This document shows, one piece after another, positions 1-5,193 of a stretch of DNA of 5,193 nt; position 1 is the stretch's first letter, and each line of letters opens with the position of its first letter. Under the pieces are notes generated by a model. The model was not told the DNA's origin. It made no database searches and saw only the letters and a program-made list of their open reading frames with translations. Source of the stretch: a virus (lineage: Duplodnaviria > Heunggongvirae > Uroviricota > Caudoviricetes); IMG/VR virus record IMGVR_UViG_2897358383_000001, positions 1 through 5,193 of that record. One strand, given 5' to 3'. The translations under genes were made by a program, and so were the position numbers.

Positions 1-1
1 C

Positions 2-328
2 CCAACGTTAAAATTACCTGATTTACGCGGTGAGTTTATCCGTGGTTGGGATGATGGGCGAGGTGTGGATGCGGGAAGGGTCATCTTAAGCATACAGGGG
101 TGGTTAACAGGAAGTCATTATCATAATATTCGGTCATGGGACGCGTGGGATAACACGGTATTGGTGCCAAATGACAGAGGGGGGGATAGCCTGTTGTCGA
201 CAGATAACGCCGTCCAAGAAGGAGCGATTAATGGTAAATTTACCAGTCAATACAGAACGGAGTTATCTGGGGGGAATGAAACCCGCCCACGTAACATTGC
301 CTTCAATTATATTGTGAGAGCAGCATAA
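2..328 (+). CDS. Tail-fibre protein, C-terminal variable (receptor-binding) cassette A; 5' end lies upstream of the window
   Basis: Frame is open from position 2 to TAA at 326-328 (the GTG at 65 in the ORF track is internal). Translation PTLKLPDLRGEFIRGWDDGRGVDAGR...ETRPRNIAFNYIVRAA carries the Mu S / P1 S-type motif and the same C-terminal 16-mer as the - strand cassettes. Its stop overlaps the next start (TAATG). Confidence 0.8.
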   Translation, partial: PTLKLPDLRGEFIRGWDDGRGVDAGRVILSIQGWLTGSHYHNIRSWDAWDNTVLVPNDRGGDSLLSTDNAVQEGAINGKFTSQYRTELSGGNETRPRNIAFNYIVRAA

Positions 329-938
329 TGGATAATGCGATATTAAATAGCGAACTTATAGCCATACAGGCAGGAAACATTATCGTTTATAACTATGATG
401 GTGGTAATCGGGAATATATTTCTGCATCAACTGAATATCTTGCTGTTGGCGTTGGTATTCCGGCACATTCTTGTTTGGATGCTCCAGGCTCACATAAAGC
501 AGGTTATGCGATTCTCCGTTCAGAGGATTTAAGTTCATGGGAGTATGTGCCAGATCATCGTGGCGAAACTGTCTATAGCATTGACACAGGGAATCCCGAA
601 GAAATCACGGTGTTGGGTGACTATCCGGAAAATACAACCACTATCGCCCGCTAACACCATACGACAAATGGGATGGAGAGAAATGGGTGGTTGATACTGA
701 GGCTCAACATAGTGGCAGCTGTAGAGGCAGCAGAAACAAAACGTCAGTCATTGATTGATACTGCGATGGATTCCATTAGTCTGATTCAGTTGAAATTACG
801 GGCTGGACGGAAGTTGACGCAGGCAGAAACCACCAGCTTAACTCCGTGCTAGATTATATAGACGAGCTGAACGCGATGGATTTAACCACGGCACCAGATC
901 TCAACTGGCCTGAAAAACAACTTTCTACAGCCAGTTGA
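328..938 (+). pseudogene. Tail-fibre assembly chaperone (Tfa/U-like), reading frame interrupted at least three times
   Basis: ATG at 328 overlaps the cassette A stop. Frame 1 (328-654) gives MDNAILNSELIAIQAGN...ENTTTIAR*. The protein then continues in frame 3 (657-~710, PYDKWDGEKWVVDTEAQH), frame 1 (~709-852, VAAVEAAETKRQSLIDTAMDSISLIQLKLRAGRKLTQAETTSL) and frame 3 (849-938, LDYIDELNAMDLTTAPDLNWPEKQLSTAS*). The C-terminal TAPD(I/L)xWP motif is typical of phage tail-fibre assembly proteins. Breaks coincide with short homopolymers. Confidence 0.55.
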
Positions 939-948
939 TATAATTAAT

Positions 949-989
949 CCGCCCTCACAATATAATTAAATGCAATATTACGAGGGCGG
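949..989. other. Imperfect hairpin (CCGCCCTC..AATAT / ATATT..GAGGGCGG) between the convergent chaperone gene and cassette B; possible bidirectional terminator
   Basis: 8-bp GC-rich stem 949-956/982-989 with an inner 5-bp AT stem 959-963/975-979 and an 11-nt loop. It lies inside the sequence encoding the cassette B C-terminus (RPRNIAFNYIVRA) and is followed by only a short T-run (GTTTCT). Confidence 0.25.
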
Positions 990-1243
990 GTTTCTAAGCC
1001 AGCAGTACCTAAATTAGCTACGGACTGTTTATATGTTTTAAAGTTCCATAATTAGGGGCTGGCAATCCTGCATCGCTTGTGTTCCCCCATCTGATAACTC
1101 CCGTATTACCACTAGTAGCCCATGCCTCGTCAAAGTAGAAATTAATTGAGCTGTCAGTTGCTACGGTTGATTTTGACGGTAATCCGTGAGCATGATCTCC
1201 GTTGCATATCCTTGCTCGCTTAAATAGAGCGACCTGGATCAAT

Positions 1244-1447
1244 CCCGCGCCCGTCATCCCAGCCACGAATGAACTCACCACGTAAATCAGGCAATTTATT
1301 GTCGGGTTAAGCCTTTGCCAGATTTGGGTACTTTTCAGAAGAAAATGCTGCACCATTGCATTTCAGCCACCCCGTTGGAGGTGTGGCTGAGGGCCACGGA
1401 ACAGGCACACCAACAGGCAGTGCAGAGCCTTCCCCAAACCAACGTTT
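1244..1447. repeat. Direct repeat copy 1 (5' module of cassette B including crossover site)
   Basis: Aligns with 1731-1934. About 98% identical over the site-proximal ~140 bp (1310-1447 vs 1796-1934: three substitutions plus a 1-nt C-run difference), about 75% over the distal ~65 bp. Confidence 0.85.
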
Positions 1448-1454
1448 TTATGCC
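1430..1454. other. Candidate invertase crossover site (hix/gix/cix-like), copy at head of cassette B
   Basis: TTCCCCAAACC-AA-CGTTTTTATGCC. The core AAACC-AA-CGTTT resembles the AAACC-NN-GGTTT core of Hin/Gin/Cin sites; the left half is 11 nt rather than 12. Confidence 0.4.
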
Positions 1455-1924
1455 GCCCTTACGATGTAATTAAATGCGATATTTCGTGGACGGGTTTCAC
1501 TCCCGCCAGTATTACCGATACTCCCTCGTGAATGAAGTGTCGGTGATGGGATCAGACTCCCTCCTGTATTTGTGGCATCAAGTCCCCATCCTTGTGTGTA
1601 TGTTTTTTTGAAAATTGTCGCCAGCTCCCATTCATCTTTTGTGTCGTAACCATCATTGGCTACAACAATATGTCGATGCTTTTCCAGCATTCCTGTCTGA
1701 ATGCTCAATAAAGCACGTCCCGCATCCACCCCGCGCCCATCATCCCAGCCGCGAATAAATTCTCCCCGTAAATCCGGTAATTTATTGGTGGGATAAGCCT
1801 TTGCCAGATTTGGGTACTTTTCAGAAGAAAATGCTGCACCATTGCATTTCAGCCACCCCGTTGGAGGTGTGGCTGAGGGCCACGGAACAGGTACGCCAAC
1901 AGGCAATGCAGAGCCTTCCCCCAA
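1448..1924 (-). CDS. Tail-fibre variable cassette C (silent orientation, promoterless; expressed only when fused to the constant part by inversion)
   Basis: Intact 158-codon frame ...LGEGSALPVGVPVPWPSATPPTGWLKCNGAAFSSEKYPNLAKAYPTNKLPDLRGEFIRGWDDGRGVDAGRALLSIQ...ETRPRNIAFNYIVRAA*. The apparent start is a TTG immediately preceded by an in-frame TAA (1934-1936) and sits inside the crossover site, so there is no independent start. Confidence 0.75.
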   Translation of the reverse strand: MGEGSALPVGVPVPWPSATPPTGWLKCNGAAFSSEKYPNLAKAYPTNKLPDLRGEFIRGWDDGRGVDAGRALLSIQTGMLEKHRHIVVANDGYDTKDEWELATIFKKTYTQGWGLDATNTGGSLIPSPTLHSRGSIGNTGGSETRPRNIAFNYIVRAA

Positions 1925-1934
1925 ACCAACGTTT
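1731..1934. repeat. Direct repeat copy 2 (5' module of cassette C including crossover site)
   Basis: Partner of 1244-1447 in the same orientation. The diverged inverted counterpart of the distal part is at window positions 1-70 in cassette A. Confidence 0.85.
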
Positions 1935-1941
1935 TAGTCTT
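1916..1941. other. Candidate invertase crossover site (hix/gix/cix-like), outer site next to the invertase gene
   Basis: TTCCCCCAAACC-AA-CGTTTTAGTCTT, 26 bp. The left half matches the recalled gix left half TTCCTGTAAACC at 9 of 12 positions. It lies at the 5' boundary of cassette C, 55 bp upstream of the invertase ATG. Confidence 0.5.
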
Positions 1942-1995
1942 AATCCCTACCTATACCAACGATGTATTTTTAACTAAACAAAGAGGTTGTTTTTC

Positions 1996-2568
1996 ATGCA
2001 AATTGGCTACATTCGTGTGTCAACAAATGACCAAAACACAGATTTACAAAGAAATGCACTGAACTGCGCAGGATGTGAACTGATTTTTGAAGATAAAATA
2101 AGCGGAACAAAGTCAGCCAGACCAGGCTTGAAAAAGCTGCTCAGAACGTTATCAGAAGGAGATACGCTGGTTGTCTGGAAGCTGGATAGGCTTGGCAGAA
2201 GTATGAAACACCTTATCACGCTTATAGAGGAGTTGCGGGAAAAAGGTGTTAATTTCCGTAGTCTGACAGACAGTATTGACACATCAACACCCATGGGGCG
2301 TTTCTTTTTTCACGTCATGGGGGCTTTAGCAGAAATGGAACGTGAATTAATTGTTGAGAGAACACTGGCCGGACTGGCAGCTGCACGCGAACAGGGACGC
2401 ATTGGCGGACGTCGCCCGAAGTTGACAAAAGAACAACATGAGCAAATAGCGAGGTTGATCGAAAATGGCTACAGCAGGAAACAGTTGGCAATTATTTACG
2501 ATATCGGTGTATCGACGATTTATCGTTATCATCCTGTAGAGAAGCGCCAAACTCAATCTGAGCTGTAA
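1996..2568 (+). CDS. Serine DNA invertase, Gin/Cin/Pin/Hin/Min family
   Basis: 190 aa from ATG 1996 (the track start at 1987 is an upstream TTG), with AAGAGG 9 nt upstream. MQIGYIRVSTNDQNTDLQRNAL... contains the catalytic-serine motif, the conserved VVWKLDRLGRSMKHL and GRFFFHVMGALAEMERELI blocks, and a C-terminal HTH (GYSRKQLAIIYDIGVSTIYRY). Confidence 0.95.
   Translation: MQIGYIRVSTNDQNTDLQRNALNCAGCELIFEDKISGTKSARPGLKKLLRTLSEGDTLVVWKLDRLGRSMKHLITLIEELREKGVNFRSLTDSIDTSTPMGRFFFHVMGALAEMERELIVERTLAGLAAAREQGRIGGRRPKLTKEQHEQIARLIENGYSRKQLAIIYDIGVSTIYRYHPVEKRQTQSEL
2017..2080. promoter_or_regulatory. Candidate recombinational enhancer (Fis-binding sites) inside the 5' end of the invertase gene
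   Basis: Position by analogy with hin/gin/cin enhancers. Near-palindrome GTCAACAAATGAC at 2019-2031; GCGCAGGATGTGAAC at 2066-2080 fits the degenerate Fis pattern G-N2-Y-R-N2-W-N2-Y-R-N2-C; centres are about 48 bp apart. Confidence 0.3.
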
Positions 2569-2688: not shown

Positions 2689-2707
2689 CCCTAGCCCGAG
2701 ACTAGGG
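2689..2707. other. Perfect 6-bp palindromic hairpin CCCTAG-N7-CTAGGG in the invertase-downstream intergenic region
   Basis: Stem 2689-2694/2702-2707, 7-nt loop, no T-tract after it. Could be a protein-binding palindrome or a weak terminator. Confidence 0.25.
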
Positions 2708-3003
2708 TATCACCTCTGGAAAGCATACGCAGAACCTTTTTTAACCCAGGGTGCCCAGCCTTTTTGCTGCTCGCCTTATTCGCAAAAATTAGCTCACATC
2801 CTGCGCTTTCAAGTGCTTTTCACTGCATAGCTGTGTTTTGTTCATTTGTCTATATGCGTACATAGCCTATTAGCATATTTTCTGCCCACTATCGTTATTT
2901 ATTGCAAGCTACAGGTTTTAATTAACAAAACCAGTGTGTGTGGAAATCACAAAGTGCATACCGTTCTCAGATGTTGTTCAACTTACTGTTGTATAGGTAA
3001 AAA

Positions 3004-3267
3004 ATGACATTTTATGTACATATCGTGATGTTATCCCTTCTTGGTGGGGTGTATTCGTATTTGAGTGGGCTATGTGAAAACCGTTACGAGTCTTCATGCA
3101 AGAAATTGCTGGCCGAATGTATTTCCGCCGTACTTGCTGGCTTTATTGGCATGTATCTCGCGGAATATAAGGATATGAATGAAAGCCTTCAGAGCTGCAT
3201 GGTTCTTATTTTCAGCGCCAATAGCAGGCTTATTATTGAAGGTTCCAAAAGTCGGTTGAATAGGTAA
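3004..3267 (+). CDS. Small membrane protein, holin-like paralogue of the following gene
   Basis: 87 aa, AGG 6 nt upstream of ATG. Two clear hydrophobic helices (FYVHIVMLSLLGGVYSYLSGL; LLAECISAVLAGFIGMYLA) and a charged C-terminus. Aligns with the 3342-3671 product in the pattern LLxxxGGxxxxL..R..S..LLxxxxExxxAVxAGxxxxYL...ASN. Confidence 0.45.
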   Translation: MTFYVHIVMLSLLGGVYSYLSGLCENRYESSCKKLLAECISAVLAGFIGMYLAEYKDMNESLQSCMVLIFSANSRLIIEGSKSRLNR

Positions 3268-3315
3268 GTCTCTTATGCAACATAACCGGTTGAGAAGTTA
3301 CTTTGCATACCATTA

Positions 3316-3335
3316 CCTCCTGACAACGTAGGAGG
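3316..3335 (+). promoter_or_regulatory. Hairpin occluding the Shine-Dalgarno sequence of the 3342 gene
   Basis: CCTCCT (3316-3321) pairs with AGGAGG (3330-3335) across an 8-nt loop; the paired GGAGG is the only ribosome-binding site, 6 nt before GTG 3342. Confidence 0.35.
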
Positions 3336-3341
3336 GAACTT

Positions 3342-3671
3342 GTGCTTGACACACAGGAATTAGCTCCAGTTGCTATTGCGCTCCTGCTTTCAGTAATTGG
3401 TGGGATAGGCACGTTCCTGATGGATGTCCGAGACGGTCGCCAGTCTGGCAATTTGTTGGGATTGGTTACGGAGATCTTTGTTGCAGTGACAGCTGGCGCG
3501 GTGGCGTACCTATTGGGGCAACACGAGGGCTGGGAGTTATCCATTACGTACTTAATGGTAACGATAGCCAGCAATAACGGTCATGAGGTGATTTCAGGGA
3601 TGAAACGAGTGAATATCGATAGCATTCTGAATGTTCTTACAAGTTTGGTGAAAAAGGGAGGCGGGAAATGA
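3342..3671 (+). CDS. Putative phage holin (small 2-3 TM membrane protein)
   Basis: 109 aa, GTG start with strong GGAGG. TM segments LAPVAIALLLSVIGGIGTFLM and LLGLVTEIFVAVTAGAVAYLLG, a weaker third, and a Lys-rich hydrophilic C-terminus (LVKKGGGK). Stop overlaps the next start (ATGA). Confidence 0.65.
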   Translation: MLDTQELAPVAIALLLSVIGGIGTFLMDVRDGRQSGNLLGLVTEIFVAVTAGAVAYLLGQHEGWELSITYLMVTIASNNGHEVISGMKRVNIDSILNVLTSLVKKGGGK

Positions 3672-4111
3672 TTGGCTGGGGTGTATGCGTTCTTGCGTTA
3701 GCCTTAGCCGATCGCTATTTGCTAAAACGCAAGGACATCACGCATTTAGAACTTGGTGATGTGGAAATTAAACCGGGTTTCATCCGGGTGCCGTTCAAAT
3801 ACCGGTCTAAATTCCCGTTTTTGCGCGGCGCAACGGTCAGATATTGGATCCGCGATGTTCAGAAGCCGACGACAGTGATTGAAGGCGAACAACGTTGTTT
3901 GACGTCGGCTGAACAGGGCGAAAACAGTGAATGGTTGTACATACCCACTGAATATATGGGTAAAGGAGAGCGACTGTGGCATTTCAACGTCATGGTTACG
4001 CATGGCGACTCGTTCATTAACCCGTTGTATCGGATTTTCCCTGTTACTCAGCAAATCCGCAGAAGTTACGTAATAAATCTCGCACAGGATGTGTCAGATG
4101 ACGAAAAATAA
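3668..4111 (+). CDS. Hypothetical protein with N-terminal membrane anchor, translationally coupled to the holin-like gene; possible holin regulator
   Basis: 147 aa, ATG 3668 overlaps the upstream stop, AGGGAGG 6 nt upstream. N-terminus IGWGVCVLALALA is hydrophobic, the rest hydrophilic. The function is inferred only from position after a holin. Confidence 0.6.
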   Translation: MIGWGVCVLALALADRYLLKRKDITHLELGDVEIKPGFIRVPFKYRSKFPFLRGATVRYWIRDVQKPTTVIEGEQRCLTSAEQGENSEWLYIPTEYMGKGERLWHFNVMVTHGDSFINPLYRIFPVTQQIRRSYVINLAQDVSDDEK

Positions 4112-4700
4112 GTATGCAACGGTCGATTTTGACCAGGTTAATGAAAAGGGGCTGAAATCCCTTATCGCGGCGATCAATAAAACCGGTGTTACGGTAATTG
4201 AGGTTGACTCCAGCAACCGCGCAACAACGAAAGATGGCGTTAAAGTTAAAACCGCAAAGCTGGTTCTTAACGACGGACAAATTCTTGCCATACAGGTAAA
4301 CGATACTGGCGATATATCGTCTGTGAGGCTGAATGGAAAAGCTATTCCTAACGCTCAATCGCCGGATATCAAGACGCTTGGTACCGTCATGGGGCAAGCG
4401 GCCCGCAAAAACTCCGCAAAATTCCAGAAATCACTGATCGCCAAAGCGAAACGTGTTGCCAATCCGGTAGACAAGAAACCGGCAGTAAAATCCAACTTTC
4501 AGCGCCTGCAAGAGGCAAAACAGCGGAATGCTCAGGTGGTTGCCGCTTATAAATCAGCGCAGAACTCGGTGTCTTTCAATCAACAGCAGATCACTGATTT
4601 GCGGGCGAAGCTGGATAAGGAGACAGGCCGACTCAATAACGAAAAGGCCCGAAATGGCGAACTCAAACGCCGTCTTAAGCAACTGAAAGCAGGAAATTAA
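4098..4700 (+). CDS. Hypothetical Lys-rich protein with C-terminal coiled-coil-like region
   Basis: ATG 4098 preferred over 4089 (AGGA 8 nt upstream); the start lies 14 nt inside the upstream gene. 200 aa, MTKNKYATVDF...; C-terminal third is rich in K/R/Q/E/A (QRLQEAKQRNAQVVAAYK...LRAKLDKETGRLNNEKARNGELKRRLKQLKAGN). Confidence 0.65.
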   Translation: MTKNKYATVDFDQVNEKGLKSLIAAINKTGVTVIEVDSSNRATTKDGVKVKTAKLVLNDGQILAIQVNDTGDISSVRLNGKAIPNAQSPDIKTLGTVMGQAARKNSAKFQKSLIAKAKRVANPVDKKPAVKSNFQRLQEAKQRNAQVVAAYKSAQNSVSFNQQQITDLRAKLDKETGRLNNEKARNGELKRRLKQLKAGN

Positions 4701-4701
4701 C

Positions 4702-5193
4702 ATGGAACAGTTCAATATCAATAAAGGGGTGACGATCAAGCCTGGGCTTGACGTGCTTCCCCCGCCAGTGACTGATGATGAATATCGCGCATTAATGGCC
4801 GGTGAGGACCGCTATCTGATGACGGAATCCAACACCCTGGAGGAAATCGAGGCTACGTTCTTCTATGACACGCCGATCCACTGGTGTGCTACGGATTTAC
4901 TGGAGGCGATTAGTTCTACTCGTTTGCAGTTACACCGGACCATGCAGGCATTTGTCCGGGCATTGAACCAGAAGCTGAATGGTACCGGAATCTCTGCGGG
5001 GAGTGATAAAACGGGGGATGTGGCCCAGAGCGGCGCGCGCGCGATCGGCGGTGCTGAAATTGGCCGGGCACGGAACGTTAACGGGCTGCCGGTCCTGCCA
5101 GCCATTATTCCGCTCAGTGATGGTCAGACTATCAGCATTCTGTTTCATAGCCCGACAGCGGAAAACCGGATCACCAATAGCGATACGCTGGTT
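4702..5193 (+). CDS. Hypothetical protein, 3'-truncated by the window (at least 164 codons)
   Basis: ATG 4702 is 1 nt after the upstream TAA with AGGAAA 5 nt upstream. Frame is open to the window end (MEQFNINKGVTIKPGLDVLPPPVTDDEYRALMAGEDRY...). It is absent from the ORF track only because no stop falls inside the window. Confidence 0.65.
   Translation, partial: MEQFNINKGVTIKPGLDVLPPPVTDDEYRALMAGEDRYLMTESNTLEEIEATFFYDTPIHWCATDLLEAISSTRLQLHRTMQAFVRALNQKLNGTGISAGSDKTGDVAQSGARAIGGAEIGRARNVNGLPVLPAIIPLSDGQTISILFHSPTAENRITNSDTLV

What the first reader, a model, noticed from the sequence alone, without database searches (positions are those of the whole stretch)
1244..1941. Two crossover modules in direct orientation, homogenised near the site and diverged distally
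The modules at 1244-1447 and 1731-1934 share about 98% identity over the ~140 bp next to the crossover site and only about 75% over the next ~65 bp. The same protein motif in cassette A (window 1-70) differs from C almost only at synonymous positions. This suggests gene conversion or recombination keeps the site-proximal module uniform while the rest evolves under protein-level constraint. Direct orientation of the two sites also permits deletion of cassette C between them.
Basis: seen in the sequence. Interest (0 to 1): 0.65.

Follow-up and report, generated by a model that had tools for sequence, protein, structure and literature searches.

The report
Repeated tail-fibre cassette heads, Min-type shufflon
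The two repeats are the conserved first 200 bases of two silent tail-fibre tip cassettes in the well-known multiple-inversion ("Min"-type) host-range switch of a P1-like phage-plasmid; their patchy identity comes from one shared recombination tract, not from a special homogenising process at the crossover site.

Summary
The repeat is real. Windows 1244-1447 and 1730-1934 align at 92.7%: 96.5% over the site-proximal 142 columns, 84% over the distal 63. A perfect 98-nt tract lies at 1308-1405.

It is the 5' end of two promoterless tail-fibre C-terminal cassettes, B (944-1442, minus strand) and C (1448-1929, minus strand). Each starts at a 26-bp cix/gix-like crossover site. A Gin/Cin-family serine invertase follows at 1996-2568. 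The module encodes the phage tail collar domain (Pfam PF07484), homologous to the T4 gp37 fibre tip.

Fourteen related loci yielded 112 such cassettes of about 12 types, in arrays of 2 to 17. This matches the p15B Min system described in 1990-92.

- **Exchange by homologous recombination is supported.** The modules are mosaics. The tract test gives P of about 1e-4, and at least 17 recombination events are needed.
- **Site-anchored homogenisation is not supported.** Synonymous diversity is flat along the module. B and C differ at three positions and one indel within 38 nt of the site.
- **Copy-number variants exist.** Some relatives lack cassettes and some have extra ones, with site-bounded junctions. 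Whether the invertase or homologous recombination made them is unresolved.

Verdict: ordinary and already known. Interest is low.

The parts
1..328 (+). Cassette A (type V02): the 3' three-quarters of a tail-fibre C-terminal cassette, cut by the window start. Bases 1-75 are the distal end of its collar module. It ends ...ETRPRNIAFNYIVRAA*.
   Evidence: Translation. It is 99% identical to the complete cassettes in L002-L006. Inverted repeats I1/I2 pair it with the B and C modules.
328..940 (+). Tail fibre assembly (Tfa/U-like chaperone) gene. In the window it is broken by three 1-nt indels.
   Evidence: The intact orthologue L005:8329-8937 hits Pfam Caudo_TAP PF02413 at 3e-30. Frameshifts are at 646, 714 and 833.
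944..1442 (-). Cassette B (type V03): a promoterless tail-fibre C-terminal cassette. In the window it is disrupted by six 1-nt indels, one of which lies inside the site's inner half.
   Evidence: Intact 167-aa orthologues are present in L002-L006, with a Collar domain hit.
1227..1442 (-). Collar-coding 5' module of cassette B. This is the first copy of the reported repeat.
1429..1454 (-). 26-bp crossover site of cassette B. On the plus strand it reads CTTCCCCAAACC AA CGTTTTTATGCC. Its outer half overlaps the stop codon of cassette C. Its inner half is one G/C shorter than in relatives.
   Evidence: It was compared with the annotated P1 cixL/cixR sites.
1448..1929 (-). Cassette C (type V00): an intact 160-codon tail-fibre C-terminal cassette that starts at the crossover TT. 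Its layout is collar module, then an HRH motif and variable tip, then the C-terminal NIAFNYIVRAA strand.
   Evidence: Pfam Collar PF07484 at 3e-15. It aligns to the T4 gp37 tip structure 2XGF at both ends, E = 6.5e-17.
1714..1929 (-). Collar-coding 5' module of cassette C. This is the second copy of the reported repeat.
1916..1941 (-). 26-bp crossover site of cassette C, next to the invertase. On the plus strand it reads TTCCCCCAAACC AA CGTTTTAGTCTT.
1308..1405 (-). 98-nt tract perfectly identical to 1794-1891. It is a shared recombination or conversion block inside the module.
   Evidence: P about 1e-4. Its central block (module positions 62-122) is carried by six cassette types in other plasmids.
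944..1007 (-). Conserved 3' arm of cassette B, repeated at 1448-1511 in C (77% identical). It encodes the last strand of the collar domain.
   Evidence: family D2; inverted repeats I3/I4 pair it with cassette A at 267-329. One search gives the alignment to the gp37 C-terminus.
1996..2568 (+). Serine DNA invertase of the Min/Pin/Cin/Gin family, 190 aa.
   Evidence: Pfam Resolvase 2e-51 and HTH_7 3e-15. Gin structures 3UJ3/4M6F at about 1e-91. It is 74% identical to P1 Cin. The exact sequence equals UniRef Q05517 'DNA-invertase', found on at least 1000 contigs.
2014..2085 (+). Putative recombinational (Fis) enhancer inside the 5' end of the invertase gene.
   Evidence: Positional and sequence homology (58/72) to the enhancer annotated in P1 cin. 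Fis binding was not tested.
2700..2965 (-). Relic 5' end and promoter region of a cin-like invertase gene with in-frame stops. It marks the replacement of a Cin system by the Min-type system.
   Evidence: 89.9% identity to P1, and the translation carries stops.

Best explanation
Window 1-2568 is the invertase-proximal end of a Min-type multiple DNA inversion region in a P1-like phage-plasmid. It works as a tail-fibre 'shufflon' run by a serine invertase.

Each silent cassette is a complete fibre tip. It has a collar domain, a variable receptor-binding needle/head, and a last collar strand. Each begins exactly at a 26-bp crossover site. The inner half of that site plus the next 200 nt or so encode the conserved collar domain. 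Inversion between the site at the end of the constant S gene and an oppositely oriented cassette site fuses a new tip in frame.

The reported direct repeat is this collar-coding head of the two neighbouring minus-strand cassettes, B and C. Its amino-acid sequence is held by protein-fold constraint. Its nucleotide sequence is a mosaic, because the heads of the roughly 12 cassette types exchange blocks by homologous recombination or gene conversion, within arrays and probably between elements. The 98-nt perfect B/C tract is one such shared block. The same homology, possibly with rare invertase action on direct sites, lets cassettes be lost or duplicated.

Shown here: the anatomy, the homologies, the mosaic and tract structure, and natural isomers and copy-number variants.

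Inferred: which enzymes carry out the block exchange and the deletions, and that inversion is active in this particular element.
For: - **Backbone.** Window 2700-5193 is 94-99% identical to P1/P7-type phages and IncY plasmids.
- **Invertase identity.**
- **Sites.** They match the annotated P1 cix sites, with the same TT core and 9/12 of the inner half. They are the only two such motifs in the window.
- **Module identity.** The module is Pfam Collar. The cassette aligns to the T4 gp37 tip structure 2XGF at both its N-terminal module and its C-terminal NIAFNYIVR strand.
- **Cassette family.** 112 cassette starts in 15 sources fall into about 12 recurrent types. The same type sits in different slots and orientations. 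Whole-core inversion isomers exist (L009, L013).
- **Protein constraint.** Diversity at third codon positions far exceeds that at first and second positions.
- **Mosaicism.** There are 58 module haplotypes. 319 of 595 site pairs fail the four-gamete test, and Hudson-Kaplan Rm is at least 17.
- **Module vs variable domain.** Same-type modules are only 90% identical where their variable domains are 99% identical.
- **A clean tract.** The V03 alleles of L002 and L005 differ at 13 sites, all within positions 62-122. The L005-type block occurs in six cassette types.
- **The B/C tract.** Permutation P is about 1e-4.
- **Within-plasmid signal.** Long identical tracts are more frequent within plasmids, 9.0% vs 6.2% of pairs, p about 5e-4.
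- **Copy-number variants.** Arrays range from 2 to 17 cassettes. L004 and L005 are 99.5-99.9% identical in their flanks and differ by site-bounded absence of four cassettes.
Against: - No read-level or experimental evidence shows that inversion or conversion occurs in this particular element.
- In the window, cassette B and tfa carry nine 1-nt indels, and the B site is 1 nt short. B may therefore be dead here, or the sequence locally unreliable.
- Mean identity of different-type modules is no higher within plasmids than between them. Much of the exchange may be between elements rather than intragenomic conversion.
- The permutation tests ignore the relatedness of the plasmids.
- Arrays with many duplicated cassettes (L008, L012) could be assembly chimeras of inversion isomers.
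Confidence: 0.85

Rival explanations
1. Site-anchored homogenisation. A process tied to the crossover site, either repeated strand exchange or conversion starting there, keeps the site-proximal 140 bp uniform among cassettes while distal sequence drifts.
For: In this one pair, identity is higher in the proximal 142 columns (96.5%) than in the distal 63 (84%). There is a modest within-plasmid excess of long identical tracts.
Against: Third-position diversity across 110 modules shows no gradient from the site. The perfect tract starts 38 nt from the core, after three mismatches and an indel. The window's B head nearest the site differs at four positions from the V03 head of L005, to which the rest of cassette B is substitution-identical. 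Mean identity of different-type modules is 88.6% within plasmids against 88.4% between. Serine invertases exchange strands at a fixed 2-bp core without copying flanking DNA (established mechanism; PMC4817059).
Confidence: 0.07
2. Pure protein-level constraint on an old duplication. The two heads are similar only because the collar fold is conserved, with no DNA exchange.
For: There is a strong excess of synonymous over non-synonymous variation. The collar domain is conserved as far as T4 gp37.
Against: This view predicts even synonymous divergence. Instead there are 33 consecutive family-polymorphic sites with no B/C difference (P about 1e-4). Haplotypes are shared in blocks across cassette types, with Rm at least 17.
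Confidence: 0.04
3. A nucleotide-level functional element, such as an accessory protein-binding site or an antisense transcript or ORF, inside the 98-nt tract keeps it identical.
For: Antisense ORFs of 52 and 58 codons lie over both copies (1315-1473 and 1801-1977).
Against: The same stretch carries 33 polymorphic sites across the family, so it is not conserved at the DNA level. The enhancer-like element lies in the invertase gene instead. No further site-like motif was found. The antisense ORFs are simply duplicated along with the repeat.
Confidence: 0.02
4. Assembly duplication. The second copy is a mis-assembly of one cassette.
For: The region is error-prone in this sequence, with nine 1-nt indels at 646-1432. 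Some relatives have suspicious duplicated arrays.
Against: B and C have unrelated variable domains. The same B-C arrangement is present in independent assemblies (L001, L003). Each cassette type recurs in 13-17 of the sampled slots, and the module is found in hundreds of records.
Confidence: 0.02

Closest known systems
Min multiple DNA inversion system of plasmid p15B (E. coli 15T-). Sandmeier et al. 1990 PNAS (PMC53420) and 1992 J Bacteriol (PMC206102). Neither paper was held in the library, so their content is cited from my own knowledge; their existence is confirmed through the reference lists seen.
   Same: P1-like IncY backbone. Serine invertase transcribed away from the array, with a relic cin 5' end beside it. 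More than two crossover sites. Several promoterless 3' tail-fibre segments, each starting at a site and sharing conserved sequence next to it. The lydA/lydB/darA genes lie downstream.
   Different: I could not align against X62121 directly. The arrays sampled here range from 2 to 17 cassettes, against six sites in p15B (from memory). The window copy of cassette B and tfa is frameshifted.
Cin/C-segment of phage P1 and Gin/G-segment of phage Mu
   Same: Same recombinase family (74% identity to Cin; Gin structures at about 1e-91). Homologous 26-bp sites with a TT core inside the S gene. An enhancer in the 5' end of the invertase gene. The same purpose, host-range switching.
   Different: P1 and Mu have two sites, two large Sv/Sv' segments and two tfa genes (U and U'). 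Here there are many short cassettes of about 480 bp, a single tfa, and the invertase gene in the opposite orientation.
Pin/P-segment of the e14 element, and P2-like prophage invertible tail-fibre regions
   Same: Homologous cassettes and sites occur in a chromosomal P2-like prophage (L015, about 88% identity). 3375 chromosomal places match the query region.
   Different: Different phage backbone, and a different 199-aa invertase in L015.
R64 shufflon (Rci)
   Same: A cluster of overlapping invertible segments supplies alternative C-termini to one surface protein. Inversion is favoured over deletion despite same-oriented sites (PMC11850598).
   Different: Rci is a tyrosine recombinase and the target is the PilV pilus adhesin. 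There is no sequence relationship.
T4 gp37 long tail fibre tip (PDB 2XGF)
   Same: The cassette aligns to the collar-forming N-terminal segment, the HxH region and the C-terminal NIAFNYIVR strand. This explains why both ends of each cassette are conserved.
   Different: gp37 is a single fixed gene with no inversion, and its needle/head is much longer.

Membership tests
Din-family serine DNA invertase systems (Gin/Cin/Pin/Hin/Min) | Recombinase with an N-terminal resolvase catalytic domain and a C-terminal HTH_7 domain, about 190 aa | tested here: met
   Pfam PF00239 at 2e-51 and PF02796 at 3e-15. Gin structures at 4e-92. 74% identity to P1 Cin.
Din-family serine DNA invertase systems (Gin/Cin/Pin/Hin/Min) | 26-bp imperfect-palindrome crossover sites with a 2-bp core, homologous to cix/gix/hix | tested here: met
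   1429-1454 and 1916-1941. The core is TT and the inner half GGTTTGGGGGAA, against GGTTTAAGAGAA in P1 cix. These are the only two matches in the window, where 0.27 are expected by chance.
Din-family serine DNA invertase systems (Gin/Cin/Pin/Hin/Min) | Fis-dependent recombinational enhancer in the 5' part of the invertase gene | tested here: inconclusive
   58/72 identity to the annotated P1 Cin enhancer at the same gene position. Fis binding and function cannot be tested here.
Din-family serine DNA invertase systems (Gin/Cin/Pin/Hin/Min) | Sites in inverted orientation bracketing segments that actually invert | tested here: met
   The window holds only the two direct sites, and the inverted partners lie upstream of base 1. 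In related loci, plus- and minus-oriented sites coexist. The same cassette types occupy different slots and strands, and the whole core is found in both orientations relative to S and the invertase.
Min-type multiple inversion region (p15B) | More than two crossover sites, giving overlapping invertible segments with several alternative 3' ends for the tail-fibre gene | tested here: met
   The window has two sites plus cassette A, which implies a third. Relatives have 2-17 sites.
Min-type multiple inversion region (p15B) | Invertase is Min itself (identity to the p15B min product, X62121) | tested here: inconclusive
   The exact protein equals UniRef Q05517_ECOLX 'DNA-invertase'. A paper reports a P1-like plasmid invertase 98.5% identical to Min (PMC6906374). 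The p15B record itself was not available to align.
Phage tail collar domain / gp37-type fibre tip | Collar domain formed by an N-terminal segment and the C-terminal strand, with HxH motifs following | tested here: met
   PF07484 at 3e-15. 2XGF aligns to residues 7-93 and 137-160 of cassette C. HRH, HAH and HYH motifs are seen in the translations.
Concerted evolution by intragenomic gene conversion | Different-type (paralogous) copies within a genome are more alike than copies compared between genomes | tested here: inconclusive
   Mean identity is 0.886 within and 0.884 between plasmids, p = 0.12. Runs of at least 90 nt of identity occur in 9.0% vs 6.2% of pairs, p about 5e-4. Plasmid relatedness was not controlled for.
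Concerted evolution by intragenomic gene conversion | Discrete tracts with two breakpoints shared between non-allelic copies | tested here: met
   The V03 alleles differ only at positions 62-122, and the block is shared by six types. The B/C tract gives P about 1e-4. Rm is at least 17.
R64-type shufflon | Tyrosine recombinase Rci acting on sfx sites | tested here: not met
   The recombinase here is a serine resolvase/invertase. This is an analogy only.

The most novel reading that the evidence does not exclude
The conserved collar-coding head and the 60-nt tail of each cassette may act as homology arms. Receptor-binding inserts would then be copied or swapped between slots, between co-resident P1-like plasmids, and between these and P2-like prophages. 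Occasional invertase action on same-oriented sites might excise or insert whole cassettes, which would make the array a capture-and-shuffle system somewhat like an integron. The site-bounded differences between near-identical plasmids and the module mosaics do not exclude this. They are equally explained by ordinary RecA-type recombination.
Probability: 0.15. Interest if true: 0.5.

Novelty: already known. Interest (0 to 1): 0.2.

Why it matters
The main value is annotation. These repeats mark a host-range switching array in P1-like phage-plasmids, which are common carriers of resistance genes in E. coli and Klebsiella.

Recognising the array explains three things:
- why complete assemblies of near-identical plasmids differ in cassette order, orientation and number;
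- why this region is prone to assembly and polishing errors;
- why tail-fibre tips are mosaics.

The population comparison adds one modest point. The 'conserved' head of a cassette is exchanged so often that it diverges more between copies of the same cassette type than the receptor-binding part does. Nothing here challenges current understanding.

Tried and rejected
- **Original papers.** I tried to read the p15B Min papers and the P1 genome paper (PubMed id 1534556, PMC53420, PMC206102, PMC523184). None is held, so their content is cited from memory only.
- **Recent literature.** Searches on P1-like phage-plasmids found general mentions of the C-segment/Min switch but no analysis of the cassette heads.
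- **Mean identity test.** Within-plasmid against between-plasmid mean identity gave no signal. A run-length statistic was then needed to see a small effect.
- **Invertase pseudo-sites.** I looked inside the module for sites that could explain the tract boundaries. None was found at up to 2 mismatches.
- **DNA-level element or antisense ORF in the tract.** Considered and rejected, because the stretch is polymorphic in the family.
- **Assembly duplication.** Considered and rejected.
- **Separating invertase-mediated from homology-mediated deletion.** I attempted this using the L004/L005 junctions. The junctions are confined to 16-28 nt around the core. However, a plausible intermediate isomer would have about 135 nt of identical module sequence at the junction, so the test cannot decide.
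- **Structure prediction.** Judged unnecessary once the solved gp37 tip aligned by sequence.
Full report
**Observation**

The window contains a direct repeat with a 486-bp period (1230-1450 vs 1716-1936, 89% ungapped). Gapped identities are as follows:

| Window region | Partner | Identity |
|---|---|---|
| 1244-1447 | 1730-1934 | 190/205 = 92.7% |
| 1307-1447 (site-proximal) | 1793-1934 | 137/142 = 96.5% |
| 1244-1306 (distal) | 1730-1792 | 53/63 = 84% |

A perfect 98-nt tract lies at 1308-1405 (1794-1891 in the other copy). The perfect stretch also does not touch the crossover site. Between the tract and the core dinucleotide there are three synonymous mismatches and a 1-nt indel.

The cassette A fragment at the window start differs from C by 10 nucleotides in synonymous codons and by one amino acid.

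**What the region is**

Bases 2700-5193 are 94-99% identical to the lydC-lydA-lydB-hdf-darA region of P1, P7 and many IncY phage-plasmids.

Bases 1996-2568 encode a 190-aa serine DNA invertase:
- Pfam Resolvase and HTH_7 domains.
- About 1e-91 to the solved Gin structures.
- 74% identical to P1 Cin.
- Identical to UniRef Q05517 'DNA-invertase', a protein seen on at least 1000 contigs.

On the minus strand upstream of the invertase lie two promoterless tail-fibre C-terminal cassettes, C (1448-1929, intact) and B (944-1442). On the plus strand lie a tail-fibre assembly gene (328-940) and the end of a third cassette, A (1-328).

Each minus-strand cassette begins at a 26-bp site:
- 1916-1941: TTCCCCCAAACC AA CGTTTTAGTCTT.
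- 1429-1454: CTTCCCCAAACC AA CGTTTTTATGCC.

These are the only two such motifs in the window. They are homologous to the annotated cixL/cixR sites of P1, with the same TT/AA crossover dinucleotide. The outer half of the B site contains the stop codon of cassette C, so the cassettes are packed head to tail.

A relic cin 5' end sits at 2700-2965 on the minus strand. An enhancer-like stretch lies at 2014-2085 in the invertase gene (58/72 to the P1 Cin enhancer). Both fit what I recall of the p15B Min system: a Pin-like multiple-inversion module that replaced a Cin-type one in a P1-like backbone. The original papers were not available to me.

**What the repeated module encodes**

The first 200 nt or so after the crossover encode VGLGEGSALPVGVPVPWPSATPPTGWLKCNGAAFSSEKYPNLAKAYPTNKLPDLRGEFIRGWDDGRG. 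This is the phage tail collar domain (Pfam PF07484, 3e-15).

The whole cassette aligns to the solved T4 gp37 fibre tip (2XGF). The alignment covers this N-terminal segment, an HxH motif, and the very C-terminal ...NIAFNYIVR(A/L)A strand. This explains why both ends of each cassette are conserved. The 3' arm, 944-1007 against 1448-1511, is 77% identical. It also explains why the middle, the receptor-binding part, is not conserved.

**Comparison with relatives**

I fetched 14 related loci: 12 P1-like plasmids or phages, one D6-like/P1-like plasmid and one chromosomal P2-like prophage. From these and the window I extracted every cassette start, 112 in all. They fall into about 12 recurrent variable-domain types.

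- The window's A, B and C are types V02, V03 and V00.
- The core V02>-tfa-<V03 is present in 11 of the 14 related loci.
- The remaining cassettes occupy different slots and strands in different plasmids.
- In L009 and L013 the whole core is inverted relative to the S gene and the invertase.
- Array size ranges from 2 cassettes (L004) to 17 (L012).

These are the natural isomers and copy-number variants expected of a multiple-inversion system. They also rule out an assembly artefact as the source of the repeat.

**Test of the homogenisation idea**

Across 110 aligned modules, diversity at third codon positions in successive 27-nt bins from the core is 0.22, 0.31, 0.31, 0.20, 0.21, 0.33, 0.34 and 0.54. 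Diversity at first and second positions is 0.00-0.06 until the last bin. Two conclusions follow:
- The whole module is under strong protein constraint.
- There is no gradient of DNA-level uniformity away from the site. The lowest diversity is in the middle of the module.

Different-type modules are 88.6% identical within a plasmid and 88.4% identical between plasmids (p = 0.12).

Cassettes of the same type from different plasmids are far more alike in their 'variable' domain than in this 'conserved' module:

| Type | Variable domain identity | Module identity |
|---|---|---|
| V03 | 98.9% | 90.0% |
| V00 | 97.4% | 91.0% |
| V07 | 98.7% | 90.4% |

That pattern is the signature of module exchange between cassette types.

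**Evidence for exchange**

- Polymorphic-site tables show block-wise sharing of haplotypes across types.
- There are 58 distinct module haplotypes. 319 of 595 informative site pairs fail the four-gamete test, and at least 17 recombination events are required.
- The clearest case is V03. Its alleles in L002 and L005 differ at 13 positions, all within positions 62-122 of the 505-nt cassette. The L005-type block is carried exactly by 16 cassettes of six types, including V00.
- The window's B has the L005-type block. This is why it matches C perfectly over 98 nt.
- A GENECONV-style permutation gives P of about 1e-4 for that tract.
- About 5.5% of all different-type pairs in the sample have a run of at least 98 nt, so the B/C tract is not exceptional.
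- Long identical runs are somewhat more frequent within plasmids than between them (9.0% vs 6.2% of pairs with at least 90 nt, p about 5e-4). This suggests some intra-array conversion, but plasmid relatedness was not controlled.

**Deletion between direct sites**

Variants lacking cassettes exist. L004, L006 and L010 have V03 directly next to the invertase, with no V00 anywhere in the array.

L004 and L005 are 99.5-99.9% identical in their flanks. L004 lacks four cassettes that L005 has. The junction modules are 216/216 identical to the retained cassettes, which confines the junctions to 16-28 nt around the core. That is what a site-to-site event would leave. However, two inversions followed by a single homologous crossover within about 135 nt of identical module sequence would give the same product, so the mechanism is undecided.

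Published work on this enzyme family shows that wild-type, Fis/enhancer-dependent invertases are orientation-selective. Deletion at rates comparable to inversion is reported for an enhancer-independent mutant (PMC4817059). Multi-site inversion systems favour inversion over deletion (PMC11850598). 'Permits deletion' is therefore too strong as a statement about the invertase. The 200-bp direct homology is the more likely substrate for both deletion and duplication; a tandem V00-V00 pair is seen in L011.

**Caveats on the window sequence**

Relative to its closest relatives (99.1%), the window has nine single-base indels against four substitutions. All nine lie between 646 and 1432, and there are none in the other 4.4 kb. 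They break tfa and cassette B and shorten the inner half of the B site by one base, so B would be out of frame after fusion. This ratio of indels to substitutions looks more like local consensus error than like decay, but only reads can tell.

**Verdict**

The feature is real. It is the collar-coding head of two neighbouring cassettes in a Min-type tail-fibre inversion array, a system described more than 30 years ago. The patchy identity reflects one recombination tract in a family-wide mosaic, not a site-anchored homogenising mechanism. Novelty: already known. Interest: low.

Noticed in passing
window 646-1432: Nine single-base indels relative to 99%-identical relatives, against only four substitutions. 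All fall within tfa, cassette B and the inner half of the B crossover site, with none elsewhere in the window. This is either local decay of these two genes or a consensus error in an inversion-prone region.
   Followed up: partly
window 2700-2965 (minus strand): Relic 5' end and promoter region of a cin-like invertase gene, 89.9% identical to P1, with in-frame stops. It includes a second enhancer-like copy at 2787-2858 (60/72 to the P1 Cin enhancer).
   Followed up: yes
window 328-940, and loci L009, L013, L014: Only one tfa chaperone gene lies between the convergent cassettes. When a minus-strand cassette such as B or C is fused to the S gene, tfa becomes antisense to the operon, as in the natural isomers L009 and L013. 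L014 instead has two convergent tfa genes. How fibres made from B or C are chaperoned is unclear.
   Followed up: no
L012:6860-15320 and L008:11930-19660: L012 has 17 cassettes, with several types present 2-4 times on both strands. L008 has a second copy of the invertase-lydC-lydA-lydB block with three more cassettes. These are either real amplification through the repeated modules or long-read assembly chimeras of inversion isomers.
   Followed up: no
L003:3068-5319: An ISEc10 (IS21-family) element is inserted inside the cassette array of plasmid pe1-39_A.
   Followed up: no
L015:6245-10522: A chromosomal P2-like prophage carries homologous cassettes (types V09, V02, V14 and V01, about 88% identical) with tfa and a different 199-aa invertase. 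The cassette set is therefore shared between unrelated phage backbones. 3375 chromosomal places in E. coli genomes match the query region.
   Followed up: partly
window 1315-1473 and 1801-1977 (plus strand): Antisense ORFs of 52 and 58 codons lie over both copies of the module. They are duplicated because the repeat is duplicated, and nothing suggests that they are genes.
   Followed up: no
window cassette C (minus strand, about 1670-1690) and cassettes in L002-L006: HxH motifs (C: HRH; B: HAH; A: HYH; others HTH and HAH) directly follow the collar module. The metal-binding needle of the T4 gp37 tip has the same feature.
   Followed up: partly
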